A stretch of DNA of 24,000 nucleotides from Methanocaldococcus sp. FS406-22 (GCF_000025525.1 NC_013887.1:110729-134728); one strand, 5' to 3'. Numbered from the stretch's first letter, positions 2,631 through 15,033 are shown. Program-made: numbers and translations. Notes: generated by a model not told the origin, from the sequence alone.

Positions 2631-3637
2631 TTTTGTTGGAAAAAACACAGGAAAAAAAGGCAAATAAAGGAGAGGAGCTTATAGTTAAGGAAAAGGCTGA
2701 AACAAACTGGGATTATGGCTGTAATCCATATGAAAGAAAGATAGAGGATTTGATAAAATATGGTGTTGTTGTTATTGACAAGCCAAGAGGGCCTACCTCT
2801 CATGAGGTTTCAACATGGGTAAAGAAGATTTTAAAGTTGGATAAAGCTGGACATGGTGGAACATTAGACCCTAAGGTTACTGGTGTTTTGCCTGTTGCAT
2901 TAGAGAGAGCTACAAAAACAATACCAATGTGGCACATCCCACCTAAGGAATATATTTGCTTAATGCATCTACATAGGGATGCTTCCGAAGAAGATATATT
3001 GAGAGTTTTTAAAGAATTTACAGGAAGGATTTATCAAAGACCACCATTAAAAGCAGCTGTTAAAAGAAGATTGAGAATAAGGAAGATTCATGAGTTAGAG
3101 TTATTAGATAAAGAGGGTAAGGATGTTTTATTTAGAGTTAAATGTCAATCTGGGACTTATATAAGAAAGTTATGTGAAGATTTAGGGGAAGCGTTAGGGA
3201 CATCTGCCCACATGCAAGAGTTAAGGAGAGTTAAAAGTGGATGCTTTGAGGAAAAAGATGCCGTTTATTTGCAGGACTTAGTTGATGCTTATGTATTTTG
3301 GAAAGAGGATGGGGATGAGGAAGAGTTAAGGAGAGTTATAAAACCAATGGAGTATGGATTGAGTCATTTAAAAAAGGTTGTTGTTAAGGATTCTGCTGTT
3401 GATGCTATTTGCCACGGAGCAGATGTTTATGTTAGAGGAATAGCTAAATTGAGTAAGGGTATTGGTAAAGGGGAGACAGTTTTAGTTGAGACTTTGAAGG
3501 GAGAAGCTGTAGCTGTAGGAAAAGCTTTAATGAACACAAAAGAGATTTTAAATGCAGATAAAGGTATTGCTGTTGATGTTGAGAGGGTTTATATGGATAG
3601 AGGAACTTATCCAAGGATGTGGAAGAGGAAGAAGTAG
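2627..3637 (+). CDS. cbf5: H/ACA RNP pseudouridine synthase Cbf5 (TruB family with PUA domain)
   Basis: 336 aa, GTG start. TruB catalytic motif GHGGTLDPKVTGVLPV and a C-terminal PUA domain. Length and sequence are near-identical to my recollection of M. jannaschii Cbf5 (MJ0148). Confidence 0.97.
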   Translation: MILLEKTQEKKANKGEELIVKEKAETNWDYGCNPYERKIEDLIKYGVVVIDKPRGPTSHEVSTWVKKILKLDKAGHGGTLDPKVTGVLPVALERATKTIPMWHIPPKEYICLMHLHRDASEEDILRVFKEFTGRIYQRPPLKAAVKRRLRIRKIHELELLDKEGKDVLFRVKCQSGTYIRKLCEDLGEALGTSAHMQELRRVKSGCFEEKDAVYLQDLVDAYVFWKEDGDEEELRRVIKPMEYGLSHLKKVVVKDSAVDAICHGADVYVRGIAKLSKGIGKGETVLVETLKGEAVAVGKALMNTKEILNADKGIAVDVERVYMDRGTYPRMWKRKK

Positions 3638-3679
3638 TTTTTAGAATTACAGAAAATTTAACATAATTATTTTTTTGGT

Positions 3680-4618
3680 GTGATTATGAGAGTTGGGATC
3701 ACAGCAATAGTTCCACCTGAAATTATTTACTCAACCAATCATATTCCTTTGGATTTAAACAATTTTGTTCCCCAATCTAATGTACATCCTAAAAATAAAC
3801 TGTGTGCTTGGACTGCTTCATGGAGAGAGTTGATTTTAGAGGATAAAATTAAAATTAATAAATTAATTGTTGTTGCTGGAGGAGATTGTCAAAATTCCCT
3901 TGTTGATGCTGAAAAGATAGAATTGAAGAAAAAAATTCCTACGCATTATTTCTTTTATCAATTTGGAGATAAAGAACATTTTGAAAATGAAATAAAAAAA
4001 CTTATTGATTTTTTAGGAGGGGATGTTGATAAAGATATTTTAAGAGAAGTTTATAAAATAAAAAAACTTGCAAAAAAAGTTGATGAATTGTGCTATAAAG
4101 ATAAAATAAATGGGAAGGATGCATTTTATACCACAATTTCTGCAAGTGATTTAAAAGGAAACCCAAATGCATACAAAAAAGAGATTGAAAATTTATTAAA
4201 CAATGAGGAGAATGTTGAATATAGGTATAGAATTGCTTTAATTGGCATACCACCAATTTTTAGTGATTTTTATGAATATCTGAATGAAATAAATGTGCAT
4301 TGTGTTTATAACGAATTACCTTATGAGTTTGTGAGGATGGGAGGAGACTCAATAAAGAGTATAGTAGACACCTATTCAACATACACGTTTGCCAACCATA
4401 TAACTAAAAGAATAAAGATTATAAAGAGAGAATTAAAAAAGAGAAAGGTTGATGGAATAATCCACTATACACAAATGTGTTGTCATCATAAGTTAGAAGA
4501 TGAAATCCTCAGAGAATTTATTGATTACCCTATGCTGACAATAGAGGGAGATATTCCCCAAAAAACACCCGAACAAGTGAAGTTAAGAATAGAAGCATTT
4601 ATAGAGATGTTGGGATAG
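3680..4618 (+). CDS. 2-hydroxyacyl-CoA dehydratase (HgdB/HGD-D family)-like subunit, single copy
   Basis: 312 aa (GTG 3680 or ATG 3686). Overall HGD-D-like layout with conserved Cys positions (GGDCQNS; IHYTQMCCHHKLEDE). It is followed 2 nt later by a cognate-type activase gene. The family call is from motif recollection, not a search. Confidence 0.7.
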   Translation: MIMRVGITAIVPPEIIYSTNHIPLDLNNFVPQSNVHPKNKLCAWTASWRELILEDKIKINKLIVVAGGDCQNSLVDAEKIELKKKIPTHYFFYQFGDKEHFENEIKKLIDFLGGDVDKDILREVYKIKKLAKKVDELCYKDKINGKDAFYTTISASDLKGNPNAYKKEIENLLNNEENVEYRYRIALIGIPPIFSDFYEYLNEINVHCVYNELPYEFVRMGGDSIKSIVDTYSTYTFANHITKRIKIIKRELKKRKVDGIIHYTQMCCHHKLEDEILREFIDYPMLTIEGDIPQKTPEQVKLRIEAFIEMLG

Positions 4619-4620
4619 CT

Positions 4621-5301
4621 ATGATGGGTATTGACGTTGGCTCAACACACATAAAAATTGCGGATGGGAAAAGTTTTAAAAAATATCCAATAATTAAATT
4701 AAATGAAATATTAAAAAAGTACAATAACGATGATGTTTTTGCAACAGGATATTTTAGAAAGAGGTTTAAAAATCACATAACTGAAATTACTGCTGCTATA
4801 TATGGAGTTGATAAAGAAATTGATGTTATAATTGATGTTGGTGGGCAGGATACAAAGATAATAAACACAAAAACATTAGAGTTTGTGATGAATGATAAAT
4901 GTGGAGCGGGGACTGGATTATTTTTACAAACCATAGCTATGTATTTGAATGTCCCTATCGAAGATTTTGGTAAGTATTATTCAAAAGATCCCTTAAAGTT
5001 AAATAATACTTGTGCTGTTTTTTCGATTTCTGAAATCATCAATTATCTTGTAAATGGTTATAGCATTAAAGATATCATAGCATCTGTAAATTACACTATA
5101 GCAAAGAAAATAGCCAATATGAATCCATATGAATGTGAAACTATTGCTCTAATTGGTGGAGTAGCAGAGAATAAGGCATTTGTTAAGTATTTTAAAGAAG
5201 TTACTGAGAAAGACGTTTACATTCCTAAAAATCCACAGTTTATAAATGCAATAGGGGCGAGAAAATATGGAATTGAACACTCAGCAAAAAATAATCTTTG
5301 A
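4621..5301 (+). CDS. CoA-substrate-specific enzyme activase (HgdC/BcrAD_BadFG ATPase family)
   Basis: 226 aa. ASKHA phosphate motifs GIDVGSTHIKI and DVGGQDTKII, adenosine motif IGGVAEN, and the two cluster-bridging Cys contexts of HgdC-type activases (MNDKCGAGTG and NNTCAVFSISE). Confidence 0.85.
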   Translation: MMGIDVGSTHIKIADGKSFKKYPIIKLNEILKKYNNDDVFATGYFRKRFKNHITEITAAIYGVDKEIDVIIDVGGQDTKIINTKTLEFVMNDKCGAGTGLFLQTIAMYLNVPIEDFGKYYSKDPLKLNNTCAVFSISEIINYLVNGYSIKDIIASVNYTIAKKIANMNPYECETIALIGGVAENKAFVKYFKEVTEKDVYIPKNPQFINAIGARKYGIEHSAKNNL

Positions 5302-5839
5302 AATTTATGATTTGTATAAGAGATTTGAGTTGATGATAAATAACAATAGAAGCAAAACCAAAAAACAAATAGAAAAGATTAAAAATGAAATTATAGTTAA
5401 GGATATTAATGATGTTAGTTATGTTGATAGGGTTCAGGAAATTTTGTTGAATTATAGAGAGATTTGGGGTTTTGTTCATAAATCATCAATAAAACAGTGG
5501 ATTACAACTTCTAAAACTATAAGTGTAGCTGGAATGTTTCATAAAGACAATTTAATTGGGGTTATGGTTTATGGGGAAAAACCAAGTTACCTCAAAATTA
5601 ATTATATTGCAGTTAATAAAAGATTCAAAGACAATTCCCTTGGAGGATATTTTATCTCATTTTTAGAGAAAAAAGCTAAAAAATTACAAAAGAAGAAAAT
5701 ATATGCTGAAGTTCCAGGAGATAATGAGGGAGGATTGGGATTCTTCATAAAAAATGGATTTATAATTGAGGGTATTTTGAAAAATCATACAAGAGGTGGT
5801 AAAGATTTAGTATTAATGGCTAAATATTTAGAGGGATAA
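5267..5839 (+). CDS. GNAT-family N-acetyltransferase with ~70-aa N-terminal extension
   Basis: 190 aa. GNAT motif A region INYIAVNKRFKDNSLGGYFISFLEKKAKK and C-terminal FFIKNGF. The track start overlaps the activase by 35 nt, and the alternative ATG at 5333 (MINNNRS) would remove the overlap. The stop lies 2 nt before the next ATG. Confidence 0.7.
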   Translation: MELNTQQKIIFEIYDLYKRFELMINNNRSKTKKQIEKIKNEIIVKDINDVSYVDRVQEILLNYREIWGFVHKSSIKQWITTSKTISVAGMFHKDNLIGVMVYGEKPSYLKINYIAVNKRFKDNSLGGYFISFLEKKAKKLQKKKIYAEVPGDNEGGLGFFIKNGFIIEGILKNHTRGGKDLVLMAKYLEG

Positions 5840-5841
5840 AC

Positions 5842-6768
5842 ATGGTAGAATTTTTTGCATCATTAACGATTTCTGCAGGAGAAATTAAAAAAATGGTTGA
5901 ACTTTTAAAGAAACATGAACCAAAAAAATGGGTTTTTGAAAATGTGATTTTTACACCTTTGGTTTCATCGGAAAGTACTATAAAAGAAATTAGAAATTTA
6001 AAGAGAAAGTATAAAACCACTGTTATGTTTGATAGTGGAGGTTATTATGTTCAACAAGAAAAATTTGAAATATCTCAACTATTCTCGTTTTTAAGGGAAT
6101 TTTATAGAACTAATAAATGGGGAGATTGGTATGTCTTACCAGATTCTCCACCAGTTTCCTCTGATGCTGTAGATACTGCCTGGGGTAAAGTTTATGAAAC
6201 TGTATATTTTGCGAAAAGTTTTGCTGAAGAATTTAATGGGAAGATGGAGAAAAAGTTTATCCCTGTTGTTCAGGGCGTTAATAGGGATATGATTCATTAT
6301 TGTGTTAAAAATTATGCTGATTTAAATGTTAGAAGAATTGGCTTTGGAAGTTTTGGAACTTGTGGGAAAAGGAATCAAATTAATAGACTTACAAAAGACA
6401 GTTTAGAAAATCTAAGATATTTATCCAGGTTAGCAAAAGAATATGGATTCGAGTTGCATGCCTTTGGTATTGGTGGGGGAAGTTCTGTAAATAAAATTAG
6501 GGATTATGTAGATAGCTTCGATAGTAGTAGTTGGGATAAAGCAGGGGGATTTGGGGATATATTTTTCCCAAATTCAAGAACTATTAATATAACTGGAAAA
6601 TCTCCAAGAACTTCTTCAAAAAATTATATTGGATATAAGTACCTAATTGAAAAATTTAGAAATGGGCATAAATGTTACTTTTGTGAAGATTTAAGTAAGT
6701 TAAAAGAGTATAAAATATATAGATCTTTACATAATATTATAGTATTGTATGAAATGGTGAAAGAATGA
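5842..6768 (+). CDS. Minimal tRNA-guanine-transglycosylase-fold protein (DpdA-like candidate DNA/RNA base-exchange enzyme)
   Basis: 308 aa. TGT landmarks occur in the canonical order: MFDSGGYY (6025-6048; TGT DSGGFQ), VLPDSP, IPVVQGV (TGT GIVQGG), IGFGSFG, HAFGIGG, DSFDSSSW (Asp at 6520-6522 aligns with the catalytic MFDCV Asp), and HKCYFC...19 aa...LHN (6667-6684; TGT Zn site CxCxxC...H). There are no PUA or C-terminal tRNA-recognition domains. Confidence 0.75.
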   Translation: MVEFFASLTISAGEIKKMVELLKKHEPKKWVFENVIFTPLVSSESTIKEIRNLKRKYKTTVMFDSGGYYVQQEKFEISQLFSFLREFYRTNKWGDWYVLPDSPPVSSDAVDTAWGKVYETVYFAKSFAEEFNGKMEKKFIPVVQGVNRDMIHYCVKNYADLNVRRIGFGSFGTCGKRNQINRLTKDSLENLRYLSRLAKEYGFELHAFGIGGGSSVNKIRDYVDSFDSSSWDKAGGFGDIFFPNSRTINITGKSPRTSSKNYIGYKYLIEKFRNGHKCYFCEDLSKLKEYKIYRSLHNIIVLYEMVKE

Positions 6769-7505
6769 AAGGGAGTTACCATATTCAGCATAATGCTAAA
6801 CCAGAAATTATAAGGAAACTAATTGAATATAACCCAAATGCCAAAAAATCAGAACTAAAAAAAGCATTTCCTGAGATAAAATCAAGTATAATTGATGATA
6901 ATTATACAATTATGAACAAACTCATAAACGTTAAAGATAAAAATGAAATTGAAAATATTTTAAAGATGGATGATGAAATGTTCAATAACTACCTCCATTA
7001 TAAGCTTTACTCATCTAAACTACCAATTGGATGGTCTTACAGGTGCGTAATAAACATATTGTATGAAGAATATAATGGTAAAAAAATTAACTATAATGAT
7101 ATTGAACAAAAAGTTAAAGAAAAAGCGTTTGATGAAGAGCTAGGAGGAATATCATTTAGTAGTAATAGCGTTCGTGGGGCGATTAACTTTATAAGGTCTT
7201 TATCCCCTTCACCAATTGACGATAATAACGTTTTCAATCTTAGAGATTATTGTCAGCCACATCTATTATTGTGGGGGGTGGACTATCTTTATAAAAAACA
7301 GTGGGGAGAAGACTATGGATCATTAATGCTTTTGGATGAGGAGAAAGTTGAAGAACTTTCTAAATTTTGTTTAATTAAAGATGATATATTAGATGATTAC
7401 CTAAAAGAACTTGATTTTATGTATGATTTTGTCGAAATATCTATAAAAGCGTTTGGAAGATATGTGAGATTGAAAAGAACATGGAATTTTAGTGATATTT
7501 TATAA
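6765..7505 (+). CDS. Hypothetical protein (246 aa), no family recognised
   Basis: Its ATG overlaps the upstream stop (ATGA at 6765-6768), giving good coding continuity in the operon. I cannot place any motif with confidence. LPIGWSYR is only vaguely reminiscent of the FPLRYGW motif I associate with DUF4007. Confidence 0.55.
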   Translation: MKGSYHIQHNAKPEIIRKLIEYNPNAKKSELKKAFPEIKSSIIDDNYTIMNKLINVKDKNEIENILKMDDEMFNNYLHYKLYSSKLPIGWSYRCVINILYEEYNGKKINYNDIEQKVKEKAFDEELGGISFSSNSVRGAINFIRSLSPSPIDDNNVFNLRDYCQPHLLLWGVDYLYKKQWGEDYGSLMLLDEEKVEELSKFCLIKDDILDDYLKELDFMYDFVEISIKAFGRYVRLKRTWNFSDIL

Positions 7506-7518
7506 AAGGGGGAGGGGT

Positions 7519-8028
7519 ATGGATTACATTACACTAATAAATTACATAAAGAGAAATTATTCCTCTAAATTCTTAACTGATAGTCAAAAGGAAGCATATA
7601 ACAAATTAAAAAAATTTCTTTTATTTGATAATGTTGTAAATCTTTATGGAAAAAGTGGGGTTGGAAAAACGTTTTTAGGATGGGTGTTTGCAAAAGATAA
7701 TAACTTTATTTATTTTAAAACTGAAGAAGAGTTCAAAAAATACAAAACAACAAGAAAAATGAATGTAATTATTGATAATGGTGAACTAAATGATGGAAGA
7801 AATATTAGGAGGTTAATTTCTCTAAAGGCAAATAAGGCAATTTATATTTCAAAAGGAGAAACTTTAGATTACAGTGTAAAGCTAACATTGAACTGGCGTG
7901 ATGTTGAACATGTTTTAGAGAATATCTCTCCAATTATTGAGAAAAATAAAAATATATATATTGACAACTTTTTTGATAGTGATTTAAATTTATGGAAAGT
8001 ATTTAAGGTGATGACATATGGATATTAG
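7519..8028 (+). CDS. Small P-loop NTPase (169 aa)
   Basis: Walker A GKSGVGKT (7648-7671) and a Walker-B-like hhhhD in NVIIDNG. I prefer the ATG at 7519, preceded by GGGGGAGGGG (7508-7517), over the track start 7492, which overlaps the previous gene. Confidence 0.65.
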   Translation: MDYITLINYIKRNYSSKFLTDSQKEAYNKLKKFLLFDNVVNLYGKSGVGKTFLGWVFAKDNNFIYFKTEEEFKKYKTTRKMNVIIDNGELNDGRNIRRLISLKANKAIYISKGETLDYSVKLTLNWRDVEHVLENISPIIEKNKNIYIDNFFDSDLNLWKVFKVMTYGY

Positions 8029-11000
8029 CTTATTGGAATACATAATAAATAAGAGTCCTGTTATAGACACCTATTCTGCTGAAAACTTAATAAATGAACC
8101 AAATTTAGTTGTGGATAAATATGAAAGCCACTTAAAAACATATATAAAGGTTGATGATGAGGAATTTGATAAAAGATTTATAAGGGAAATTAAAAAAGGA
8201 AAAACAGTAAAAGGCTATATTTCAGCTCCTTATGGTTATGGAAAGACAAGTAAAGCCTTGAGTTTGTGGGATTATTGTAAGAAAAATAACATCCTTGCAA
8301 TTCCTCCATTTAAATTCGATGGAAAACTTGATACAATAATGGATGCAGTTTATGGTTGGACAAGATATGTTTACAAACTTAAATATCCTGAGTATTTAGA
8401 CAAAATTGAGAAAATTTATAGAAAATATAAGGGTCTAAGTATAGAAAAAGAAATTGAATATTTAATGAAAAATAGAAATTTAACGGAAAATGAAGCTAAA
8501 GAGATAGTTTATGATCTTTTAAATAGGGGGAAATTAATTGTATCAATTACACCAAAAGATCTAATGAATTTCTTAAAGGAAATGAATGAAATCATAAAAG
8601 AACATTTTGAAGGTATGGCAATTTTCGTTGATGAAGTTCAGGGAATAAAAAATATGGAAATTATAAATAACTTAAGAAACTTTATTTTTGAGTTAAGCAT
8701 TAACAACATAGGTTTAGGTATTTTGTTTATAATTCCTGATTATCAGGAGGAAGATTTAAACATAAGAGCTGGAGATCTAATTGATAGACTACGAAAAGAT
8801 GGATTTTATTTAAATTTAGTAAATATATATAGTGTCAATTTCGCAGAGGACTTATGGAAAAAATACGGAGAACTTTTACAATTTAACCCCTATGATATCA
8901 TAACAGAAGATTGTTTAAGAAGTATTGGAGAGATATCATCAAGAGAAGATTTAGGAAAAGGTCCAAGAACAGTTATAGGAGCGTTTAAATGTGCATGTAT
9001 GAAATATAAAGAGAAATTTGAACCATATACAGTGTTTGATTTTATTAATGATATCTTAAATGGAGAGATTAAGTTTATACACCAAAAGTTTTTAGATGCT
9101 TTAAATGAAGGACTATCATTAAAGAAAGTTGATTCAGACAAAAAGAGAAAGGTTATTAAACTTGTAGGAGCATTTCCAAGAGGAATTTCCGAAGAAAAAA
9201 TAAAAGATTATGGATTATATGATGAATACGAGGAATTGTCAAGATTTTACTATGGAACAGAAATCGTTTATGCACTTGAAGGATATACTCTAAAAGGTCT
9301 TCTAAAAGGTGAAACAGCTACATATGTTGAACAGCATATAAGAAAATTTAGAAGCATATTTAATGAGTCTTGGGAAGGAGAAATGATTGACGCATTCATA
9401 ACTTATATATTACCTGAGATATTTCCAAGGAAAAAAGGAAGTCAAATCATGGGTTGGAGAATAGATGAAAAGTATCCTATAGTTGGGGGGTATTATCACC
9501 AATTAACAGGAACATTTAATCCGAAATATCCATTTAGAACTATTGGAGTTTATTCCTTACGATATGATACTAACGAAAAGGAGAATACATTGGTAGATGT
9601 TGAATTTAGGTTTATATTAGATAAAAACTGTAAGAATAATGATTTAGTTATTGATTATAGAAATGGCGAAGTAATTTTTAGATTTAATGTTTTAAAGAAA
9701 GTTGGAGAAGATAAACTTCCAGGAGATCTGAAAAAACTCCAACAATATGTTAAACCGCAAGAAGTAACCCCAATGTTTATGCTATGTCTATTAAATTATT
9801 TTGACAAGATAAAAGAAAAAGAAGATGAATATGCAAAGCATGAAAGTGAGATTAATGCACTAAAATCAATTCTAATAAGATATTTGAAGAGATTTTTGTT
9901 TTCTGATGATTTGGTAGAGAAATATAATTTAAGAAAACGACAGGAAAAAATCGTTGAAGAAGTATTTAACAGAATTTGTGAATATAAATTTAGAGATTAC
10001 AGCACACTAATACATTCCCCTAACTGGCATAAAGATTTGGAGAGATATAGAATTTTATTAAATTCATTATCAATTTCGAAAAGAAGAGGAGAAGAATTTG
10101 AAACCACTAAAAAGAAATTGGTTTCTATATTAACAGGTAGTAAAAATCCAAATGTTGCAGGATTTAAAGAAGAATGTGAATACGGTAAGTGGAAGGATTT
10201 AATTAATTTAAAACATTGGGGAAAAGATGAAAAAATTAGAGTAGAGTTGAAGAAACATCCACTTGAAGAAATGATATTAAAAGAATTTATTGAAAAGTGG
10301 ATACAGCCAATAAGTGTTGATGAAATAGTTAGTTATGGAATGAGTTTAGGATACATCCCAGAAGAAGTTGAAGAAATTTTAAAAATCCTTGAGAGTAGAA
10401 GATACATTGAAATTAACAAGGGATATGTCTTCAAATCTAGAGAAATAACAAATACTGATGTTCTAAATAAATTTGATGAAGTAGAAAATCTTGCAAAAAA
10501 AGTAGTGACTCTCTATATGAAGTATGGGAAAAACGTTCCTAACATACTTGTTAAACATTCAAAAAGAGAAGAGATCAAACAACAAACTGATCCTGATTTG
10601 TTATATAAAGAGCTAGAAATTATTGAGAGTTGGGAGAAGTCATTAAAGGAATATCTTAAAACTATAGAGAATGAAATAAAAAATGATAAAGAAGAATTGA
10701 TAAATAAAGTGCTAAAAATAGGGGAAAAAATAGATGACCTGAAAAATAAAATAGATAACATAAAAGAAGAGATTATTAAAACTCACTATTCATTGGGAGG
10801 AATCGTCAGGCATTTGGAAGAGCAAATAAAAATAACAAAAAAGAAATGCAACAAAATATCAAAAGATCTACTAATACTGAAAGAAAAAATAAATTCTACA
10901 AGAGATCTTGAACCTCTTGCTGAATGTCTAAATGAAGCAAAGAAAACATTTAAAAATCTGAATTATGAGTATGAGGATGTTCTTACAAAATACAATAAAT

Positions 11001-11818
11001 TTAAATCATGGTTAGGGATTTTAAGAAAATTGGAAGAATTATATGAAAAAATTGATGTTTATAGAGATTATATTGACATCAAAGAAGAACATGATAAATT
11101 CAATGAATTGATAGAAGATATAATCCAAGGATTTGCAAGAGAAGGGGCAGATTATTTAGATATGGATAGAGACGTAGAAGAGGACATAAAGTTAATAGAC
11201 GAGAATATAAAGAAAAAAGAAAGAAATCTAAGAAATGAATTTAATAAGATACAAGAAGAAATAAGAACGAAAATGAATATATTAGCTCAAACGTTAAAAC
11301 CATTGAACATTCAGCATTATTCATATAGGGAAGCATTCAGTATTGAAGATAGAGAGACAGCATATCAAAATCTAGTAAGAAATGTAAAATCATATATAAA
11401 AGAAGTTGTAGATAAGTTAAATGATCAAGTTAATCATCTAAAAGCAGAAGTTGAACTTAGATTAAATAATAATGAAAACTATATCTCTAAATTGAAAGCA
11501 ATAGGAGAAGAAGTAGAGAATATAGATATCGAAGTTATAGATAAAGACAACTTAATGGAATCTGTTGAAGAAATAAAATCCAAAATACTTGATATTTGGG
11601 AAAATTTAGAAAAAGTTAGAAAAGAAATAAAAAGAGAGATCATTGAAAGAAGTAAATCAGAAAAATCTGAGGAAGAAATAAAAATAATTGAAATATTAAA
11701 CAAATATGGTGAGATACCAATTGAAAAACTCTCAAAATATTTAAATATGGATATTGAGGGGACTTTAAAATGGTTATTAAAAATGGAAAATGTAGAAATA
11801 ATTGTAAGGAAGAAATAA
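8018..11818 (+). CDS. Large P-loop ATPase, BrxC/PglY (DUF499)-like, with C-terminal coiled coil and putative winged-helix modules
   Basis: 1266 aa. Walker A APYGYGKTS (8225-8251) and Walker B IFVDE (8621-8635). Size and N-terminal ATPase placement match BrxC/PglY. About 10590-11650 is extremely K/E/I/N/L-rich with a heptad-like pattern. wHTH-like stretches are PISVDEIVSYGMSLGYIPEEVEEILKILESRRYIEINKGYVF and the C-terminal IIEILNKYGEIPIEKLSKYLNMDIEGTLKWLLKMENVEII. The ATG is preceded by GGTGAT. The family call is inferred. Confidence 0.6.
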   Translation: MDISLLEYIINKSPVIDTYSAENLINEPNLVVDKYESHLKTYIKVDDEEFDKRFIREIKKGKTVKGYISAPYGYGKTSKALSLWDYCKKNNILAIPPFKFDGKLDTIMDAVYGWTRYVYKLKYPEYLDKIEKIYRKYKGLSIEKEIEYLMKNRNLTENEAKEIVYDLLNRGKLIVSITPKDLMNFLKEMNEIIKEHFEGMAIFVDEVQGIKNMEIINNLRNFIFELSINNIGLGILFIIPDYQEEDLNIRAGDLIDRLRKDGFYLNLVNIYSVNFAEDLWKKYGELLQFNPYDIITEDCLRSIGEISSREDLGKGPRTVIGAFKCACMKYKEKFEPYTVFDFINDILNGEIKFIHQKFLDALNEGLSLKKVDSDKKRKVIKLVGAFPRGISEEKIKDYGLYDEYEELSRFYYGTEIVYALEGYTLKGLLKGETATYVEQHIRKFRSIFNESWEGEMIDAFITYILPEIFPRKKGSQIMGWRIDEKYPIVGGYYHQLTGTFNPKYPFRTIGVYSLRYDTNEKENTLVDVEFRFILDKNCKNNDLVIDYRNGEVIFRFNVLKKVGEDKLPGDLKKLQQYVKPQEVTPMFMLCLLNYFDKIKEKEDEYAKHESEINALKSILIRYLKRFLFSDDLVEKYNLRKRQEKIVEEVFNRICEYKFRDYSTLIHSPNWHKDLERYRILLNSLSISKRRGEEFETTKKKLVSILTGSKNPNVAGFKEECEYGKWKDLINLKHWGKDEKIRVELKKHPLEEMILKEFIEKWIQPISVDEIVSYGMSLGYIPEEVEEILKILESRRYIEINKGYVFKSREITNTDVLNKFDEVENLAKKVVTLYMKYGKNVPNILVKHSKREEIKQQTDPDLLYKELEIIESWEKSLKEYLKTIENEIKNDKEELINKVLKIGEKIDDLKNKIDNIKEEIIKTHYSLGGIVRHLEEQIKITKKKCNKISKDLLILKEKINSTRDLEPLAECLNEAKKTFKNLNYEYEDVLTKYNKFKSWLGILRKLEELYEKIDVYRDYIDIKEEHDKFNELIEDIIQGFAREGADYLDMDRDVEEDIKLIDENIKKKERNLRNEFNKIQEEIRTKMNILAQTLKPLNIQHYSYREAFSIEDRETAYQNLVRNVKSYIKEVVDKLNDQVNHLKAEVELRLNNNENYISKLKAIGEEVENIDIEVIDKDNLMESVEEIKSKILDIWENLEKVRKEIKREIIERSKSEKSEEEIKIIEILNKYGEIPIEKLSKYLNMDIEGTLKWLLKMENVEIIVRKK

Positions 11819-12720
11819 AGAAAATAAAAACTCCTTGTTACTTGAAAATAAAACATAAACTTTCTCTTCTATTTTTTGATTTTGAAGAAATATCTTATGA
11901 TGATTTTTGGAGTATGATTGATGATCCAAATATTGAAATTGAATATAAGAAGTACGTAATATTGGACAAATTTGATGATCGACTACCAATTTATGAAATA
12001 GATCATAATCCTTTTACAGGGGAATTAAATAAAATCTTGAAAGAAAAATATCATCTAATTGAAAATTATATCAAGACACAAAAAGATGTTAAAGAGATTA
12101 TAATCTCTAAAGTAAACAAAAGAACTCCAAAAACAGTTGTTTTATATTTAATAGATGGGTTATCTTATGTTGATTATGTCGAAGCACAAATTCCTTATGA
12201 AGGAGAACCAATATTCGTTAATGGAGAAACATCAACTAAAAATGGTTTAATGAATATCATTTATGGAAAAAATAACATTCCAATTGCAAAAGAGCTCCAA
12301 AAATTTGGATATAGGTGCTTTGGACAGACATATTGGAATAGGAAAAATGAACTAACAGATATTTTGTTTAGATATTTTAATGAAAAATACATTTTTCACA
12401 GTGATGAAGAAATCTACAATGTAATAAATAAATACAGATCATCAAAAAAATATATCCAGATATATAGGGGAGGGTTGGATGAGTATGCACATAAATTGAG
12501 AGACATTAGTAAAAAATCCATAATTAACAAAATAAAAGAGATATTTGAAGATATAAATAAGCTAAATGATATTTTAAATAACATAAAAGAACCATATTTA
12601 GTCGTAATTACTTCAGATCATGGTATAAAGTGGAATTTTGAAGATCCTCATAAAAAAGGCAACCATAAAGAACTTACATTTGAAACGTGTTTTGTGCCTT
12701 TAATTATAATTGAGGGATAG
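11770..12720 (+). CDS. PglZ-type alkaline-phosphatase-superfamily protein
   Basis: Metal and nucleophile landmarks occur in PglZ order: VVLYLIDGLSY (Asp 12154-12156), ETSTKNGLMNIIYG, GGLDEYAH, VVITSDHG (12610-12624). The track start 11770 overlaps the previous ORF by 49 nt. An in-frame TTG at 11842 (MKIKHKL...) is the more likely start. Confidence 0.7.
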   Translation: MVIKNGKCRNNCKEEIKKIKTPCYLKIKHKLSLLFFDFEEISYDDFWSMIDDPNIEIEYKKYVILDKFDDRLPIYEIDHNPFTGELNKILKEKYHLIENYIKTQKDVKEIIISKVNKRTPKTVVLYLIDGLSYVDYVEAQIPYEGEPIFVNGETSTKNGLMNIIYGKNNIPIAKELQKFGYRCFGQTYWNRKNELTDILFRYFNEKYIFHSDEEIYNVINKYRSSKKYIQIYRGGLDEYAHKLRDISKKSIINKIKEIFEDINKLNDILNNIKEPYLVVITSDHGIKWNFEDPHKKGNHKELTFETCFVPLIIIEG

Positions 12721-12721
12721 T

Positions 12722-13882
12722 ATGCTATTCATAGGAAGAGAAAAGCTAAAAGACAGATTAGGCAATGATATTTATATAGATGCCTCAAAATCCCATGCAA
12801 TTTTTATTTGTGGTAAAAGAGGTAGTGGGAAGAGTTACACATTGGGAGTTTTAGTCGAAGAACTTCAAGAAAAGTATCCAGATTATTTAAAAATTATTAT
12901 CGATCCAATGGGGATATTTTGGACTATGGTAGAACCAAATGAAGAACAAGAAGAAGAACTTTGGGATTGGAATTTGTATGCTGAAGGATATCCAGTTAAA
13001 CTAATAGTTCCCGGAGAAATAGAGGAAAGGTTTGATGAAGATGTTATAAGAGAGTTAGAAAATAGGGGAATAGAGTTTAAAAAACTTCTTTTAAATCCTT
13101 CTGATATCTCAGCAGAGGGGTGGTGTGATTTATTCAATTTAAATATAAACGAAATGATGGGAATAGCCTTGTATAGAGCAATTGATAATATTGAGAAAGA
13201 TTTTTTCACAATAGACGATATTATTTATGAGGTTGAAAGAGATACAAAATCAAAGGAATCTACAAAAGAAGCATTAATAAATCGTCTAAACATGGCAAAA
13301 AAATGGGGAATTTTTTCAGATGAATACATCCCAATAGAAGATATTTTTGAAAGAAATGCAATAAATGTAATTGATTTAAGTGTTATTGAAAGCGGAAGAT
13401 ATGGACTGAGAGATTTAATAGTATCGATAATTGCAAAATATTTATTTAATCAACGATTGAAAGCAAGAAAAAAAGAAATGCTAAATTTACAATCAAAAAT
13501 GCCAAAAGTTTGGTTATTTATTGATGAAGCCCATAATTTCATCCCTTCTGGGAAATCAACATTATCAAAAGAGATTCTAATAAGATGGGCAAAGGAGGGA
13601 AGACAACCAGGATTGAACTTAGTTATAGCTACTCAACAACCATCAGCAATAGATAATGAAGTTTTAAGCCAATGCGACATCATCTTTGCACATAAAGTAA
13701 CAAATAGAGAGGATATAAATGCATTAAATAAGCTCAATCAAGAGTATATGGGAAAAGAGTTAAAAGTATATATTAAAGATCTAAATAAAGGAGAGTGTGT
13801 TTTTATTGATGATGAAAAAGAATTCTTAAAAATTATAAAAATAAGGCCAAGAAAAAGTAAACATGGAGGAGGAGAGAAGTAA
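12722..13882 (+). CDS. HerA/FtsK-superfamily ATPase (DUF87-like core)
   Basis: Walker A GKRGSGKSYT (12812-12841), Walker B VWLFIDEAHNF (13508-13540), then GLNLVIATQQPSAIDNEVLSQCD, typical of HerA/VirB4-like ATPases. The ATG at 12722 is preceded by GAGGGA and lies 1 nt after the upstream stop. The track start is a TTG at 12710. Confidence 0.8.
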   Translation: MLFIGREKLKDRLGNDIYIDASKSHAIFICGKRGSGKSYTLGVLVEELQEKYPDYLKIIIDPMGIFWTMVEPNEEQEEELWDWNLYAEGYPVKLIVPGEIEERFDEDVIRELENRGIEFKKLLLNPSDISAEGWCDLFNLNINEMMGIALYRAIDNIEKDFFTIDDIIYEVERDTKSKESTKEALINRLNMAKKWGIFSDEYIPIEDIFERNAINVIDLSVIESGRYGLRDLIVSIIAKYLFNQRLKARKKEMLNLQSKMPKVWLFIDEAHNFIPSGKSTLSKEILIRWAKEGRQPGLNLVIATQQPSAIDNEVLSQCDIIFAHKVTNREDINALNKLNQEYMGKELKVYIKDLNKGECVFIDDEKEFLKIIKIRPRKSKHGGGEK

Positions 13883-13938: not shown

Positions 13939-15033
13939 ATGAAATTCTTCAATAGAGAGAAAGAAATCAAAGAAATTTTATCAATCTTAGAGGGAGAGCC
14001 AAATTTAATTTATTTTATCTACGGCTCTATAAATTCTGGTAAAACTACATTAATAAAACATATCATAGAAAATAGACTAAATGATAATTACAAAGTTTTC
14101 TACATTAATTTCAGAACCTACTTAATATCAGAAAAGAGGGAGTTTATTGAAGCTATTTTCACCACTAAAAAAGATGATTTCTTTGAAAAAATAAAGGATA
14201 AATCAGAGGTTTTAAATTTGATAACCAAAGGAGCTAAGATTCTAACTGGTATTCCAATTCCTGAGATTGAATTTGATAAGTTATTTGAAGAGAAGATAAA
14301 CGATGTTTTTCAGTATTTAAACAGTTTATTGTTAGCGGTTAAAAAGAGTGGGAAAAAGCCAATCCTAATATTAGATGAATTACAAATGATTAAAGATGTT
14401 GTGTTAAATGGGCAGAAATATTTATTAAAAGAGCTATTTCAATTTTTAGTATCTTTAACAAAGGAACAACATCTATGCCATGTTTTTTGTCTAAGTTCTG
14501 ATAGCTTGTTTATTGAGTATGTTTATAACGCTGGAGAGTTAGAAGGAAGAGCTGATTATATTTTAGTGGATGATTTTGATAAACAAACTGCTTTAAAGTT
14601 TATTGATTTCTTAGCAAGGGAGAATAATATGGAACTTTCTGATGAGGATAAGGAATTAATCTACTCTTATGTTGGTGGAAAGCCAATTTTAATAATAAAG
14701 GTATTTGATAAGCTAAAAACAGAAAGAAAATTAAAAGATATTTTAGATACTATACTTAAAGAAGAAGCACAAAAATTAAGATACTTTTTAAAAGATCTGG
14801 ACTATATAAAACCAAAAGTTAATATTGAAGATGAAGTTATTGAAATTAAAAAAGAAGACATAATTGAGGCGTTAAGATTGTTTAAAGATAACTATGAAAT
14901 TAGCGATGATAAAATTCCAAAACCAGTTTATATTTATTTAATTAAAAGAAACATTTTATTCTTAGACCCTATTGAAGGGACTCTAAAACCGCAATCATTT
15001 TTAATCTGGAATGCGATAAAAAGGATTTTATAA
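13939..15033 (+). CDS. Archaeal ATPase family protein (Arch_ATPase/PF01637-like)
   Basis: 364 aa. [12 protein letters not shown]... N-terminus, Walker [10 protein letters not shown] (14023-14049) and Walker B ILILDELQ. It resembles the multi-copy M. jannaschii archaeal ATPase paralog family, and by position is probably the MJ0147 counterpart (from memory). GGTGAT precedes the ATG. Confidence 0.85.

What the first reader, a model, noticed from the sequence alone, without database searches (positions are those of the whole stretch)
8018..11818. 1266-aa P-loop protein: BrxC-like head, two winged-helix-like inserts and a ~350-aa coiled-coil tail
Seen: Walker A APYGYGKTS (8225-8251) and Walker B IFVDE (8621-8635) lie in the first 210 aa. 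A long K/E/I/N/L-rich heptad-like region spans about 10590-11650. wHTH-like segments occur near 10305-10430 and at the extreme C-terminus (11670-11815). Inference: the architecture (ATPase head + long coiled coil + DNA-binding modules) suggests an SMC/Rad50-like or BrxC-like DNA-scanning component. The coiled-coil tail is not something I associate with canonical BrxC, so this may be a distinct archaeal subfamily.
Basis: partly seen in the sequence, partly recalled or inferred. Interest (0 to 1): 0.6.

Follow-up and report, generated by a model that had tools for sequence, protein, structure and literature searches.

The report
Divergent BrxC-like ATPase, BREX-related island
This 1266-residue gene encodes a very divergent relative of BrxC, the central DNA-binding ATPase of BREX anti-virus systems, inside a gene cluster that was described by computer analysis in 2026 but never tested; its long coiled-coil tail is normal for BrxC, not a new feature.

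Summary
The ORF, both Walker motifs, the roughly 350-aa heptad tail and the winged-helix segments are at the stated coordinates. They are conserved in 58 homologues.

What it is: a BrxC-type AAA+ ATPase of the ORC/Cdc6 clade. Its domain order matches published BrxC: AAA+ with lid, wHTH, alpha+beta domain, two wHTH, a coiled coil of about 400 aa, and a small C-terminal domain. The best solved-structure match is Acinetobacter BrxC (9zdx).

The gene sits in a cassette of GNAT, TGT/DpdA-like, BrxA-like, small P-loop, this ATPase, short PglZ and HerA. That is the "BREX-Related Capture" (BRC) system of Rakesh & Krishnan (NAR 2026, in silico only).

- Canonical BrxC also has a 250-500-aa coiled coil.
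- The family is mostly bacterial (Chloroflexota), not archaeal.

The family is nevertheless discrete and rare, with about 270 clusters among 1.8 billion representatives. HMMER cannot link it to DUF6079, although the same genome carries a canonical DUF6079 BrxC elsewhere.

New here:
- Methanococcales members.
- The same ATPase in loci with PglX, PglZ and BrxL.
- Minimal GNAT-TGT loci that lack PglZ, HerA and the small NTPase.

This scan had already noted this island in the same genome.

The parts
8018..11818 (+). 1266-aa BrxC-like AAA+ ATPase (the finding)
   Evidence: Open frame. There are 63 full-length homologues. Foldseek top hit is BrxC 9zdx_C.
8195..8827 (+). P-loop alpha/beta core (aa ~60-270): Walker A at aa 70-78, Walker B at aa 202-206, candidate arginine finger D253/R257
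   Evidence: AF2 strands 64-70, 93-99, 200-205, 233-240 and 263-266. The motif residues are invariant. The arginine-finger assignment is inference.
8840..9058 (+). Helical lid (aa 275-347) with invariant G315-P316-R317, a candidate sensor 2
   Evidence: The sensor-2 assignment is inference.
9083..9292 (+). First winged helix (aa 356-425)
   Evidence: AF2 secondary structure.
9323..9988 (+). alpha+beta domain (aa 436-657): two connector helices, six strands at 479-557, long helices at 569-657
   Evidence: It matches the BrxC alpha+beta domain described in PMC12839542 section 16.
10025..10435 (+).
   Evidence: hhalign places aa 728-804 on the wHTH at 706-780 of canonical BrxC, but weakly (Prob 43%).
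10451..11659 (+). Coiled-coil / long-helix tail (aa 812-1214)
   Evidence: AF2 pLDDT 91.8. Heptad periodicity z = 13.5. The tail is retained in all context classes and is about 100 aa shorter in 'giantA'.
11669..11815 (+). Small C-terminal three-helix (HTH-like) domain (aa 1218-1266), in the position of BrxC's dimerisation domain
   Evidence: L1253 is nearly invariant. The dimerisation role is inference from PMC13326643.
7492..8028 (+). Small P-loop NTPase, 178 aa (BrxB counterpart); overlaps the ATPase start by 11 nt
   Evidence: Weak AAA_24/nSTAND3 hits. It is syntenic in 20 loci.
6765..7505 (+). 246-aa protein of unknown family, at the position of the paper's DUF4007/BrxA counterpart
   Evidence: Syntenic in nearly all loci. 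No Pfam hit.
5842..6768 (+). TGT/DpdA-like transglycosylase
   Evidence: PF01702 matches 10 of 10 homologues and PF23859 DpdA matches 5 of 10. DSGG, VLPD and HxCxxC...H are invariant.
5267..5839 (+). GNAT acetyltransferase
11770..12720 (+). Short PglZ-like phosphoesterase
   Evidence: DGL and DHG motifs and a conserved His are invariant. PF08665 matches 4 of 9 homologues weakly.
12710..13882 (+). HerA/FtsK-type ATPase
   Evidence: DUF87 E = 1.4e-13. PADLOC HerA E = 2e-28 and mad8 E = 6e-26.
3680..5301 (+). HGD-D-like subunit and BcrAD/BadFG-type activase; Methanococcales-specific companions of the cassette
   Evidence: Pfam hits. The full-length gene occurs in exactly the same 5 of 40 genomes as the ATPase.

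Best explanation
The gene encodes the BrxC-equivalent of a BREX-Related Capture (BRC) defence cassette.

Shown:
- It has an ORC/Cdc6-type AAA+ head with intact Walker A and Walker B motifs.
- Downstream it has the BrxC domain series: wHTH, alpha+beta domain, two wHTH, a coiled coil of about 400 aa and a small terminal domain.
- It is conserved in an operon-like order with BrxA-like, BrxB-like, PglZ-like, HerA and TGT genes.

Inferred from experiments on Acinetobacter and E. fergusonii BrxC (PMC13326643):
- It forms a constitutive dimer through its C-terminal end.
- Its N-terminal heads associate reversibly on ATP binding and can build larger rings on DNA.
- The head docks the small P-loop protein together with the PglZ-like nuclease/phosphoesterase.

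On this reading it is the ATP-gated DNA-bound scaffold. It couples self-marking (here probably 7-deazaguanine insertion by the TGT-like enzyme instead of methylation) to restriction by PglZ, with HerA supplying DNA translocation.
For: Structure:
- AF2 of aa 1-830 has pLDDT 89.6. Foldseek against the PDB ranks Acinetobacter BrxC 9zdx_C first (E = 6.3e-5, prob 1.0, 562 aligned columns). Orc1/Cdc6 2qby_A, 1fnn_A and ORC subunits follow.
- The domain order and 55 matches the BrxC description in PMC12839542 section 16 and PMC13326643.

Sequence:
- Walker A, Walker B, D253/R257 and G315-P316-R317 are kept in every context class.
- PF10923 BrxC_BrxD is above its cut-off in three members, over the Walker B region.

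Context:
- The cassette TGT, 246-aa protein, small P-loop, ATPase, PglZ-like, HerA recurs in Methanococcales, Halobacteria and Chloroflexota.
- The homologue P0042 lies in such a cassette in Halogeometricum sp. S1BR25-6, a strain the BRC paper lists.
- In L017 and L020 the same family sits between a BrxA-like/small P-loop pair and a long PglZ plus BrxL, with a PglX-like methylase upstream. That is the BrxC slot of a classical BREX layout.
Against: - No HMMER-level link to canonical BrxC. Pfam DUF6079 matches 0 of 31 members. Reciprocal family profiles do not cross-hit. BLASTP against the genome's own canonical BrxC finds nothing. hhalign is weak (Prob 43-73%, E = 3e-5 to 2e-4).
- TM-scores to 9zdx are modest (0.30 and 0.42), because it is a multi-domain comparison.
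- The Cys-containing apex subdomain of the canonical coiled coil is absent.
- No experiment exists for any BRC component. Dimerisation, DNA binding and partner docking are all by analogy.
- PADLOC has no model that matches.
Confidence: 0.75

Rival explanations
1. The protein is chiefly a loader for the DNA transglycosylase. On this reading the BrxC-like ATPase, not the small NTPase, supplies the ATP-dependent step that lets the TGT/DpdA-like enzyme exchange guanine in duplex DNA. It would replace DpdB of Dpd systems, and restriction would be a secondary, optional add-on.
For: Eight loci carry GNAT, TGT, the BrxA-like protein and this ATPase (single or in tandem pairs) with no small P-loop, PglZ or HerA gene: L015, L016, L018, L019, L021, L022, L026 and L030. 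In type 1 BREX, BrxC is required for methylation as well as restriction (PMC13326643, Discussion).
Against: Other loci carry the ATPase without any TGT: L008, L010, L012, L013, L017, L020, L023 and L024. The family therefore does not depend on TGT. The loci were found through the ATPase, so co-occurrence counts are biased. There is no biochemical evidence.
Confidence: 0.12
2. The protein is a STAND-like sensor switch. It would recognise a viral protein or nucleic acid through its variable middle and tail domains, oligomerise, and activate effectors, as Avs or RADAR RdrA do, rather than scaffolding on DNA.
For: Foldseek also lists RdrA (ranks 9, 14, 18) and Apaf-1/Dark (ranks 29, 40). AAA_16 gives weak hits in one member. 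The middle and tail evolve much faster than the head: identity to distant homologues is about 30% for aa 1-830 against about 14% for aa 781-1266.
Against: BrxC and ORC/Cdc6 rank above every STAND hit. The partners (BrxA-like, BrxB-like, PglZ, BrxL, PglX-like) are BREX partners.
Confidence: 0.07
3. The protein is an SMC/Rad50-like DNA-tethering or loop-extruding ABC ATPase.
For: It has a long coiled coil and a terminal domain that could act as a hinge. BrxC itself is described as having a C-terminal 'hinge' with ATP-regulated heads (PMC13326643).
Against: Both Walker motifs lie in the first 210 aa. The head is AAA+ by fold search, with no SMC or Rad50 entry among the 50 matches listed. No Pfam SMC_N hit was found.
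Confidence: 0.02
4. The protein is a housekeeping DNA-metabolism factor (replication, repair or segregation) unrelated to defence.
For: It is ORC/Cdc6-like and lies next to a HerA-type translocase.
Against: The distribution is patchy: 5 of 40 Methanococcales genomes. It is rare, with 270 clusters among 1.8 billion representatives. It spreads across distant phyla with a conserved cassette. Its neighbours are McrBC-like genes, BrxL, a reverse transcriptase, type I R-M genes and an integrase.
Confidence: 0.04

Closest known systems
BrxC-counterpart ATPase ('DUF6079') of BREX-Related Capture (BRC) systems, Rakesh & Krishnan, Nucleic Acids Res 2026;54(3):gkag035 (PMC12839542)
   Same: It is the same gene family and the same cassette: PglZ, large ORC/Cdc6-type ATPase, small STAND-type NTPase, BrxA-like protein, HerA, GNAT and TGT. 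The homologue P0042 comes from Halogeometricum sp. S1BR25-6, a strain listed in that paper.
   Different: - Methanocaldococcus and Methanothermococcus are not named in the supplements held as text.
- The Pfam DUF6079 model does not detect this family with HMMER.
- The paper reports HerA as universal, but here the family also occurs without HerA.
- The Methanococcales copies carry an extra HGD-D-like/activase pair.
Canonical BrxC of type 1 BREX (Pfam DUF6079; Acinetobacter BrxC, PDB 9zdx; Kaiser et al., Nucleic Acids Res 2026, PMC13326643)
   Same: Best structural match for the first 550 or so residues. Similar size (1210-1300 aa) and the same domain order, including a coiled coil and a small C-terminal domain. 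The partners are BrxA-like, BrxB-like and PglZ proteins.
   Different: - No detectable sequence similarity by BLASTP or HMMER.
- The coiled coil shows stronger heptad periodicity (z 13.5 against 6.2 for the genome's own canonical BrxC) and lacks the canonical family's Cys-containing motif.
- The C-terminal domain is HTH-like.
- The modification partner is a TGT rather than the PglX methylase in most loci.
Pfam PF10923 BrxC_BrxD (BrxD/PglY-type BREX ATPases)
   Same: It is the only curated family that matches. It hits 7 of 31 members, three above the cut-off, over the Walker B region.
   Different: The match covers only about 40-90 residues. The window's own protein does not match.
Orc1/Cdc6 replication initiators (2qby, 1fnn)
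   Same: AAA+ core, helical lid and C-terminal winged helix.
   Different: They are about 400 aa long, with no alpha+beta domain and no coiled coil. Their genomic context is housekeeping.
DUF499 ATPases of BREX-related (BR) systems
   Same: An N-terminal ORC/Cdc6-type AAA+ domain followed by the wHTH/alpha+beta/wHTH triad (PMC12839542 section 29).
   Different: According to that paper, DUF499 proteins replace the coiled coil with extra wHTH and RRM-like domains. This protein keeps the coiled coil.
SMC/Rad50
   Same: A long coiled coil and a possible terminal dimerisation element.
   Different: Those have an ABC head split between the two termini. Here there is a single AAA+ head at the N-terminus.

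Membership tests
BrxC (architecture and role) | N-terminal ORC/Cdc6-clade AAA+ ATPase with Walker A, Walker B and an arginine finger | tested here: met
   AF2 model. Foldseek top hits are BrxC 9zdx_C and then Orc1/Cdc6. GYGKT, DE, D253/R257 and GPR317 are invariant. Naming R257 as the arginine finger is inference.
BrxC (architecture and role) | wHTH, then an alpha+beta domain of about 200 aa, then one or more wHTH, all after the ATPase | tested here: met
   wHTH 356-425; connector, six strands and long helices 436-657; wHTH 670-744 and 748-806.
BrxC (architecture and role) | C-terminal extended coiled coil of about 250-500 residues | tested here: met
   Long helices from 812 to 1214, pLDDT 91.8. 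Heptad periodicity z = 13.5.
BrxC (architecture and role) | Small distal subdomain on the coiled coil (two antiparallel strands with intervening helices) | tested here: inconclusive
   No strands were modelled within 859-1214; there is only a loop with a short helix at 1093-1108. The Cys-containing motif of the canonical family consensus has no counterpart in this family's consensus.
BrxC (architecture and role) | C-terminal domain of about 80 aa that dimerises the protein | not testable with these tools
   A conserved three-helix domain is present at 1218-1266. No multimer prediction or experiment was possible.
BrxC (architecture and role) | Encoded with PglZ and with BrxA-like and BrxB-like proteins | tested here: met
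   Window genes at 6765-7505, 7492-8028 and 11770-12720. PglZ follows directly in 12 of 27 informative loci, and BrxL is also present in L017.
Pfam DUF6079 (PF19557), sequence membership | Match to the family HMM above its 23-bit cut-off | tested here: not met
   No hit for the window protein or for any of 31 members at E <= 0.01. A scan of the genome with PF19557 finds only the other locus, at E = 2e-188. Reciprocal profiles do not cross-hit.
Pfam PF10923 BrxC_BrxD | Match above the 22.2-bit cut-off | tested here: inconclusive
   7 of 31 members match at E <= 0.01, three of them above the cut-off (26-32 bits). The window protein does not match.
BREX-Related Capture (BRC) system | Cassette of PglZ, large BrxC-like ATPase, small STAND-type NTPase, DUF4007/BrxA-like protein and HerA/FtsK, with optional GNAT and TGT | tested here: met
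   All seven positions are filled in the window. The same order occurs in a strain cited by the paper. Caveat: the 246-aa protein has no Pfam DUF4007 hit, and the PglZ and small-NTPase matches are weak.
SMC/Rad50 | ABC-type head formed from N- and C-terminal halves, joined by an antiparallel coiled coil with a hinge or zinc hook | tested here: not met
   Walker A and B both lie within aa 70-206. The C-terminus is a small HTH-like domain. The fold search gives AAA+ proteins only.
STAND/NACHT, KAP | A STAND-type or KAP-type NTPase core as the best structural or profile match | tested here: not met
   The first STAND-type match is RdrA at rank 9, and Dark and Apaf-1 come at ranks 29 and 40, all below BrxC and ORC/Cdc6. 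No NACHT, NB-ARC or KAP Pfam hit was found for the family.

The most novel reading that the evidence does not exclude
This discrete BrxC-like family may be the universal partner, and the ATP-dependent DNA loader, of a DNA-type TGT. The support is its occurrence in minimal loci of GNAT, TGT, a BrxA-like protein and the ATPase (single or tandem-paired) that lack PglZ, HerA and the small NTPase.

On this reading an ORC-like scaffold replaces DpdB. The loci would define a 7-deazaguanine DNA-modification module, to which PglZ/HerA or PglZ/BrxL restriction modules are added interchangeably.
Probability: 0.25. Interest if true: 0.65.

Novelty: new member of a known kind. Interest (0 to 1): 0.4.

Why it matters
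BrxC is the least understood core part of BREX. This family keeps the BrxC architecture with almost no sequence similarity, so its few invariant residues point to what is mechanistically essential. Those residues are Walker A and B, D253/R257, G315-P316-R317, W84, P96-P97 and W114.

The family links one scaffold to three different self-marking or restriction set-ups:
- TGT with PglZ and HerA;
- TGT alone;
- a PglX-like methylase with PglZ and BrxL.

That is a natural experiment on how BREX-like systems couple modification to restriction.

The genome also carries a canonical BREX-like locus. A single small hyperthermophile therefore offers both versions side by side. No component of the BRC system has been tested experimentally.

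Tried and rejected
- Pfam, NCBIfam, PADLOC and PDB sequence searches with the protein itself gave nothing meaningful. The only hits were compositional matches of the helical tail to apolipoproteins and designed helical bundles.
- BLASTP against the genome's own canonical BrxC gave no similarity.
- Reciprocal HMMER profiles gave no cross-hit.
- hhalign of the two family alignments was suggestive only (Prob 43-73%), so I did not rest homology on it.
- Foldseek of the tail model found no match below E = 0.5, as expected for long helices.
- The small P-loop protein and the 246-aa protein were compared with the small ORFs of the canonical locus. No similarity was found.
- Pfam on five homologues of the 246-aa protein gave no DUF4007 hit.
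- Model coordinates could not be inspected. It therefore remains open whether the tail is one long antiparallel hairpin or a folded bundle.
- SMC/Rad50, KAP and NACHT readings were considered and rejected on motif placement and fold search.

Full report
**Observation.** The frame 8018-11818 (+) is open and encodes 1266 residues. The Walker A motif APYGYGKTS lies at nt 8225-8251 (aa 70-78). Both are invariant in alignments of 31 and of 58 homologues. So are W84, P96-P97, W114, D253, R257 and G315-P316-R317.

The head gives z = 1.0 and the middle z = 1.3. An AlphaFold2 model of aa 781-1266, built on 58 sequences, has mean pLDDT 91.8. It consists of helices of 37-71 residues from about aa 859 to 1214, followed by three short helices at 1218-1255.

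A model of aa 1-830 (pLDDT 89.6) shows these parts:
- a five-stranded P-loop core (aa ~60-270);
- a helical lid (275-347);
- a winged helix (356-425);
- two connector helices, a six-stranded sheet and long helices (436-657);
- two further winged-helix-like units (670-744 and 748-806).

The C-terminal segment is HTH-like, but no wing strands were called. The only error is that there are more than two winged helices.

**What the protein resembles.** The sequence alone gives no curated match:
- Pfam, NCBIfam and PADLOC return nothing meaningful.
- PDB sequence searches return only compositional matches of the tail.

Structure is informative. Foldseek of the N-terminal model against the PDB ranks first the cryo-EM structure of Acinetobacter BrxC, 9zdx_C (E = 6.3e-5, probability 1.0, 562 aligned columns). 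Archaeal Orc1/Cdc6 and eukaryotic ORC/Cdc6 subunits follow. The first STAND-type match, RdrA, comes at rank 9, with Dark and Apaf-1 at ranks 29 and 40. No SMC or Rad50 entry appears among the 50 matches listed.

Among 31 family members scanned one by one, 7 match Pfam PF10923 (BrxC_BrxD). Three of these are above the curated cut-off, over the Walker B region. None matches DUF6079.

**Comparison with canonical BrxC in the same genome.** A scan of the window's own genome with the DUF6079 model finds a different gene about 780 kb away (E = 2e-188, 1210 aa). It sits in a compact BREX-like locus with an N6 methylase of 826 aa and a PglZ of 451 aa.

The two large ATPases share no BLASTP similarity. 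Profiles built from each family do not hit the other. hhalign of the two family alignments gives only weak, roughly collinear matches. The best local one places aa 728-804 on the winged helix at 706-780 of the canonical protein (Prob 43%; up to 73% with a greedy setting).

The finding is therefore a discrete family. Its tie to BrxC rests on fold, domain order and gene context, not on sequence.

**Is the coiled coil unusual?** No.
- Rakesh & Krishnan (PMC12839542, section 16) describe the BrxC C-terminus as an extended coiled coil of about 250-500 residues with a small distal subdomain.
- Kaiser et al. (PMC13326643) describe a coiled-coil region and a final 80-residue dimerisation domain in Acinetobacter BrxC.
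- The genome's own canonical BrxC shows significant heptad periodicity over aa 800-1130 (z = 6.2, 0 of 500 shuffles).

There are differences. The periodicity here is stronger. The canonical family's Cys-containing motif in the tail is absent. The terminal domain looks like an HTH.

**Context.** The gene is the seventh of nine tightly packed, same-strand genes:
1. HGD-D-like subunit
2. BcrAD/BadFG-type activase
3. GNAT
4. TGT-like
5. a 246-aa protein
6. a 178-aa P-loop protein
7. this ATPase
8. a 316-aa PglZ-like protein
9. a HerA-type ATPase

The evidence for the partners is as follows:
- The TGT-like family matches PF01702 in 10 of 10 homologues and DpdA (PF23859) in 5 of 10. It keeps the DSGG, VLPD and HxCxxC...H motifs.
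- The PglZ-like family keeps the DGL and DHG motifs and a conserved His. It matches PF08665 weakly in 4 of 9.
- HerA is clear.

A scan of one genome per species found 30 loci. I sorted them by profile searches of their six-frame ORFs.

| Class | Gene content | Loci |
|---|---|---|
| 1 | TGT, 246-aa protein, small P-loop, ATPase, short PglZ, HerA | The window; three other Methanococcales (L001-L003); two haloarchaea (L009, L028); five Chloroflexota (L004, L006, L007, L011, L014) |
| 2 | No TGT or PglZ; a longer P-loop protein; HerA kept | L008, L010, L012, L013, L025 |
| 3 | GNAT, TGT, 246-aa-like protein and a shorter ATPase, often followed by a second 246-aa-like protein and a second ATPase; no small P-loop, PglZ or HerA | L015, L016, L018, L019, L021, L022, L026, L030 |
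| 4 | PglX-like methylase, McrB-like, McrC-like, 246-aa-like protein, small P-loop, ATPase, long PglZ (BrxL follows in L017; the L020 contig ends inside PglZ) | L017, L020 (truncated versions in L023 and L024) |

A PglZ gene follows directly in 12 of 27 informative loci. Every class keeps the catalytic motifs, the coiled coil and the terminal domain.

**Relation to the literature.** Class 1 is the 'BREX-Related Capture' system of Rakesh & Krishnan (PMC12839542, section 36; found, read). That paper reports seven components in 45 taxa. It calls the large ATPase a DUF6079 protein with all BrxC domains. It is purely computational.

The homologue P0042 comes from Halogeometricum sp. S1BR25-6, a strain listed in that paper's supplement. 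It lies in a cassette of TGT, a 281-aa protein, a 147-aa protein, the ATPase, PglZ, HerA and GNAT, here followed by QueF.

Methanocaldococcus and Methanothermococcus do not occur in the supplementary files held as text. The taxon table may not be among those files. The paper reports HerA as universal. Classes 3 and 4 here show the ATPase family without HerA.

This scan had noted the same island in this genome earlier. I checked those notes against the paper and against my own tests.

**Distribution.** phmmer of aa 1-830 against 1.84 billion cluster representatives finds 270 proteins at E <= 1e-3, 239 at 1e-10 and 188 at 1e-30. Nearly all of the 150 best listed are 1150-1370 aa or fragments. 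The family is rare and sharply bounded.

Within the window's phylum-level set, 5 of 40 genomes carry it. The HGD-D-like gene is full-length in exactly those five. Kinship makes this a small number of independent events.

**Mechanism.**

Shown here:
- an AAA+ head of the ORC/Cdc6-BrxC type with intact nucleotide-binding motifs;
- the BrxC domain series;
- conserved operon partners.

Inferred from experiments on Acinetobacter and E. fergusonii BrxC (PMC13326643):
- a constitutive dimer held by the C-terminal domain;
- ATP-regulated association of the heads, and larger rings on DNA;
- ATP-dependent DNA binding that needs the alpha+beta and second wHTH region;
- docking of BrxB:PglZ on the head, which stimulates ATPase activity and DNA binding;
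- inhibition of DNA binding by BrxA.

Transferred to this cassette, the large ATPase would be the DNA-bound scaffold. It would recruit the small P-loop protein with the PglZ-like enzyme. The TGT-like enzyme would mark self DNA, probably with a 7-deazaguanine whose precursor preQ0 archaea already make for archaeosine (established knowledge). HerA would move DNA. This follows the proposal of PMC12839542.

Class 3 loci suggest a variant idea: the large ATPase itself, rather than the small NTPase, is what the DNA transglycosylase needs.

**Verdict.** The BrxC-like reading is supported. The SMC-like reading and the novelty argument are not.

The protein is a new (Methanococcales) member of a recently described but untested family. 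That family is deeply diverged from canonical BrxC. The additional contexts found here modestly extend what is published.

Noticed in passing
L034:8163-16899 (own genome, G000:C1, about 892-901 kb): The genome has a second, canonical BREX-like locus. It holds a 184-aa ORF, a DUF6079 BrxC (1210 aa, E = 2e-188), an N6 methylase (826 aa), a PglZ (451 aa) and a 243-aa ORF. It therefore carries both a canonical and a divergent BrxC system.
   Followed up: partly
L018:7601-18254; also L015, L019, L021, L022, L026 (tandem) and L016, L030 (single): These Chloroflexota loci carry GNAT, TGT, a BrxA-like protein, a shorter ATPase (about 1165 aa) and often a second BrxA-like protein plus a second ATPase (about 1350 aa). 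They have no PglZ, HerA or small P-loop gene. I did not find this layout in the main text of the BRC paper, which reports HerA as universal.
   Followed up: partly
L017:2318-18286 and L020:2-15714: Here the same ATPase family sits in a BREX-type layout: PglX-like methylase, McrB-like and McrC-like genes, BrxA-like protein, small P-loop, ATPase, long PglZ; BrxL follows PglZ in L017, and the L020 contig ends inside PglZ. L020 also has an 807-aa reverse-transcriptase ORF at 2771-5191.
   Followed up: partly
L040:13286-14247 (Halogeometricum sp. S1BR25-6): A QueF gene (preQ0 reductase family) follows GNAT at the end of the haloarchaeal cassette. This hints that the DNA mark there could be preQ1-derived rather than preQ0. 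An integrase lies about 2.3 kb further on.
   Followed up: no
L002:5142-9486 (Methanothermococcus sp. Ax23): Four extra genes are inserted between the BrxA-like and small P-loop genes of the cassette. They encode proteins of 749, 215, 195 and 290 aa, and the last is a RAMP-superfamily protein (E = 3e-19).
   Followed up: partly
window 3680-5301: The HGD-D-like subunit and the BcrAD/BadFG-type activase upstream of GNAT occur full-length in exactly the 5 of 40 related genomes that carry the large ATPase, always next to the cassette. Two other genomes hold only fragments. No counterpart was found in the bacterial or haloarchaeal loci.
   Followed up: partly
window 13939-15033: An ATPase_2 / MJ1010-like archaeal ATPase gene (E = 2e-70) follows HerA after a 56-nt gap. 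It is absent from the cassettes of other lineages and is probably a separate gene.
   Followed up: no
L025:9977-13028: The ATPase homologue is split into three overlapping or adjacent frames. This is either a decayed copy or an assembly error in this metagenome bin.
   Followed up: no
L008:8562-9992, L010:3419-5065, L012:8421-9992, L013:1597-3042: In loci without TGT and PglZ, the small P-loop protein is replaced by a protein of 480-550 aa. Its P-loop lies near residue 420 in L010, and its N-terminal roughly 380 aa have no Pfam match in the two copies scanned (L010, L012). L008 also has a radical-SAM gene upstream, at 5648-6670.
   Followed up: no
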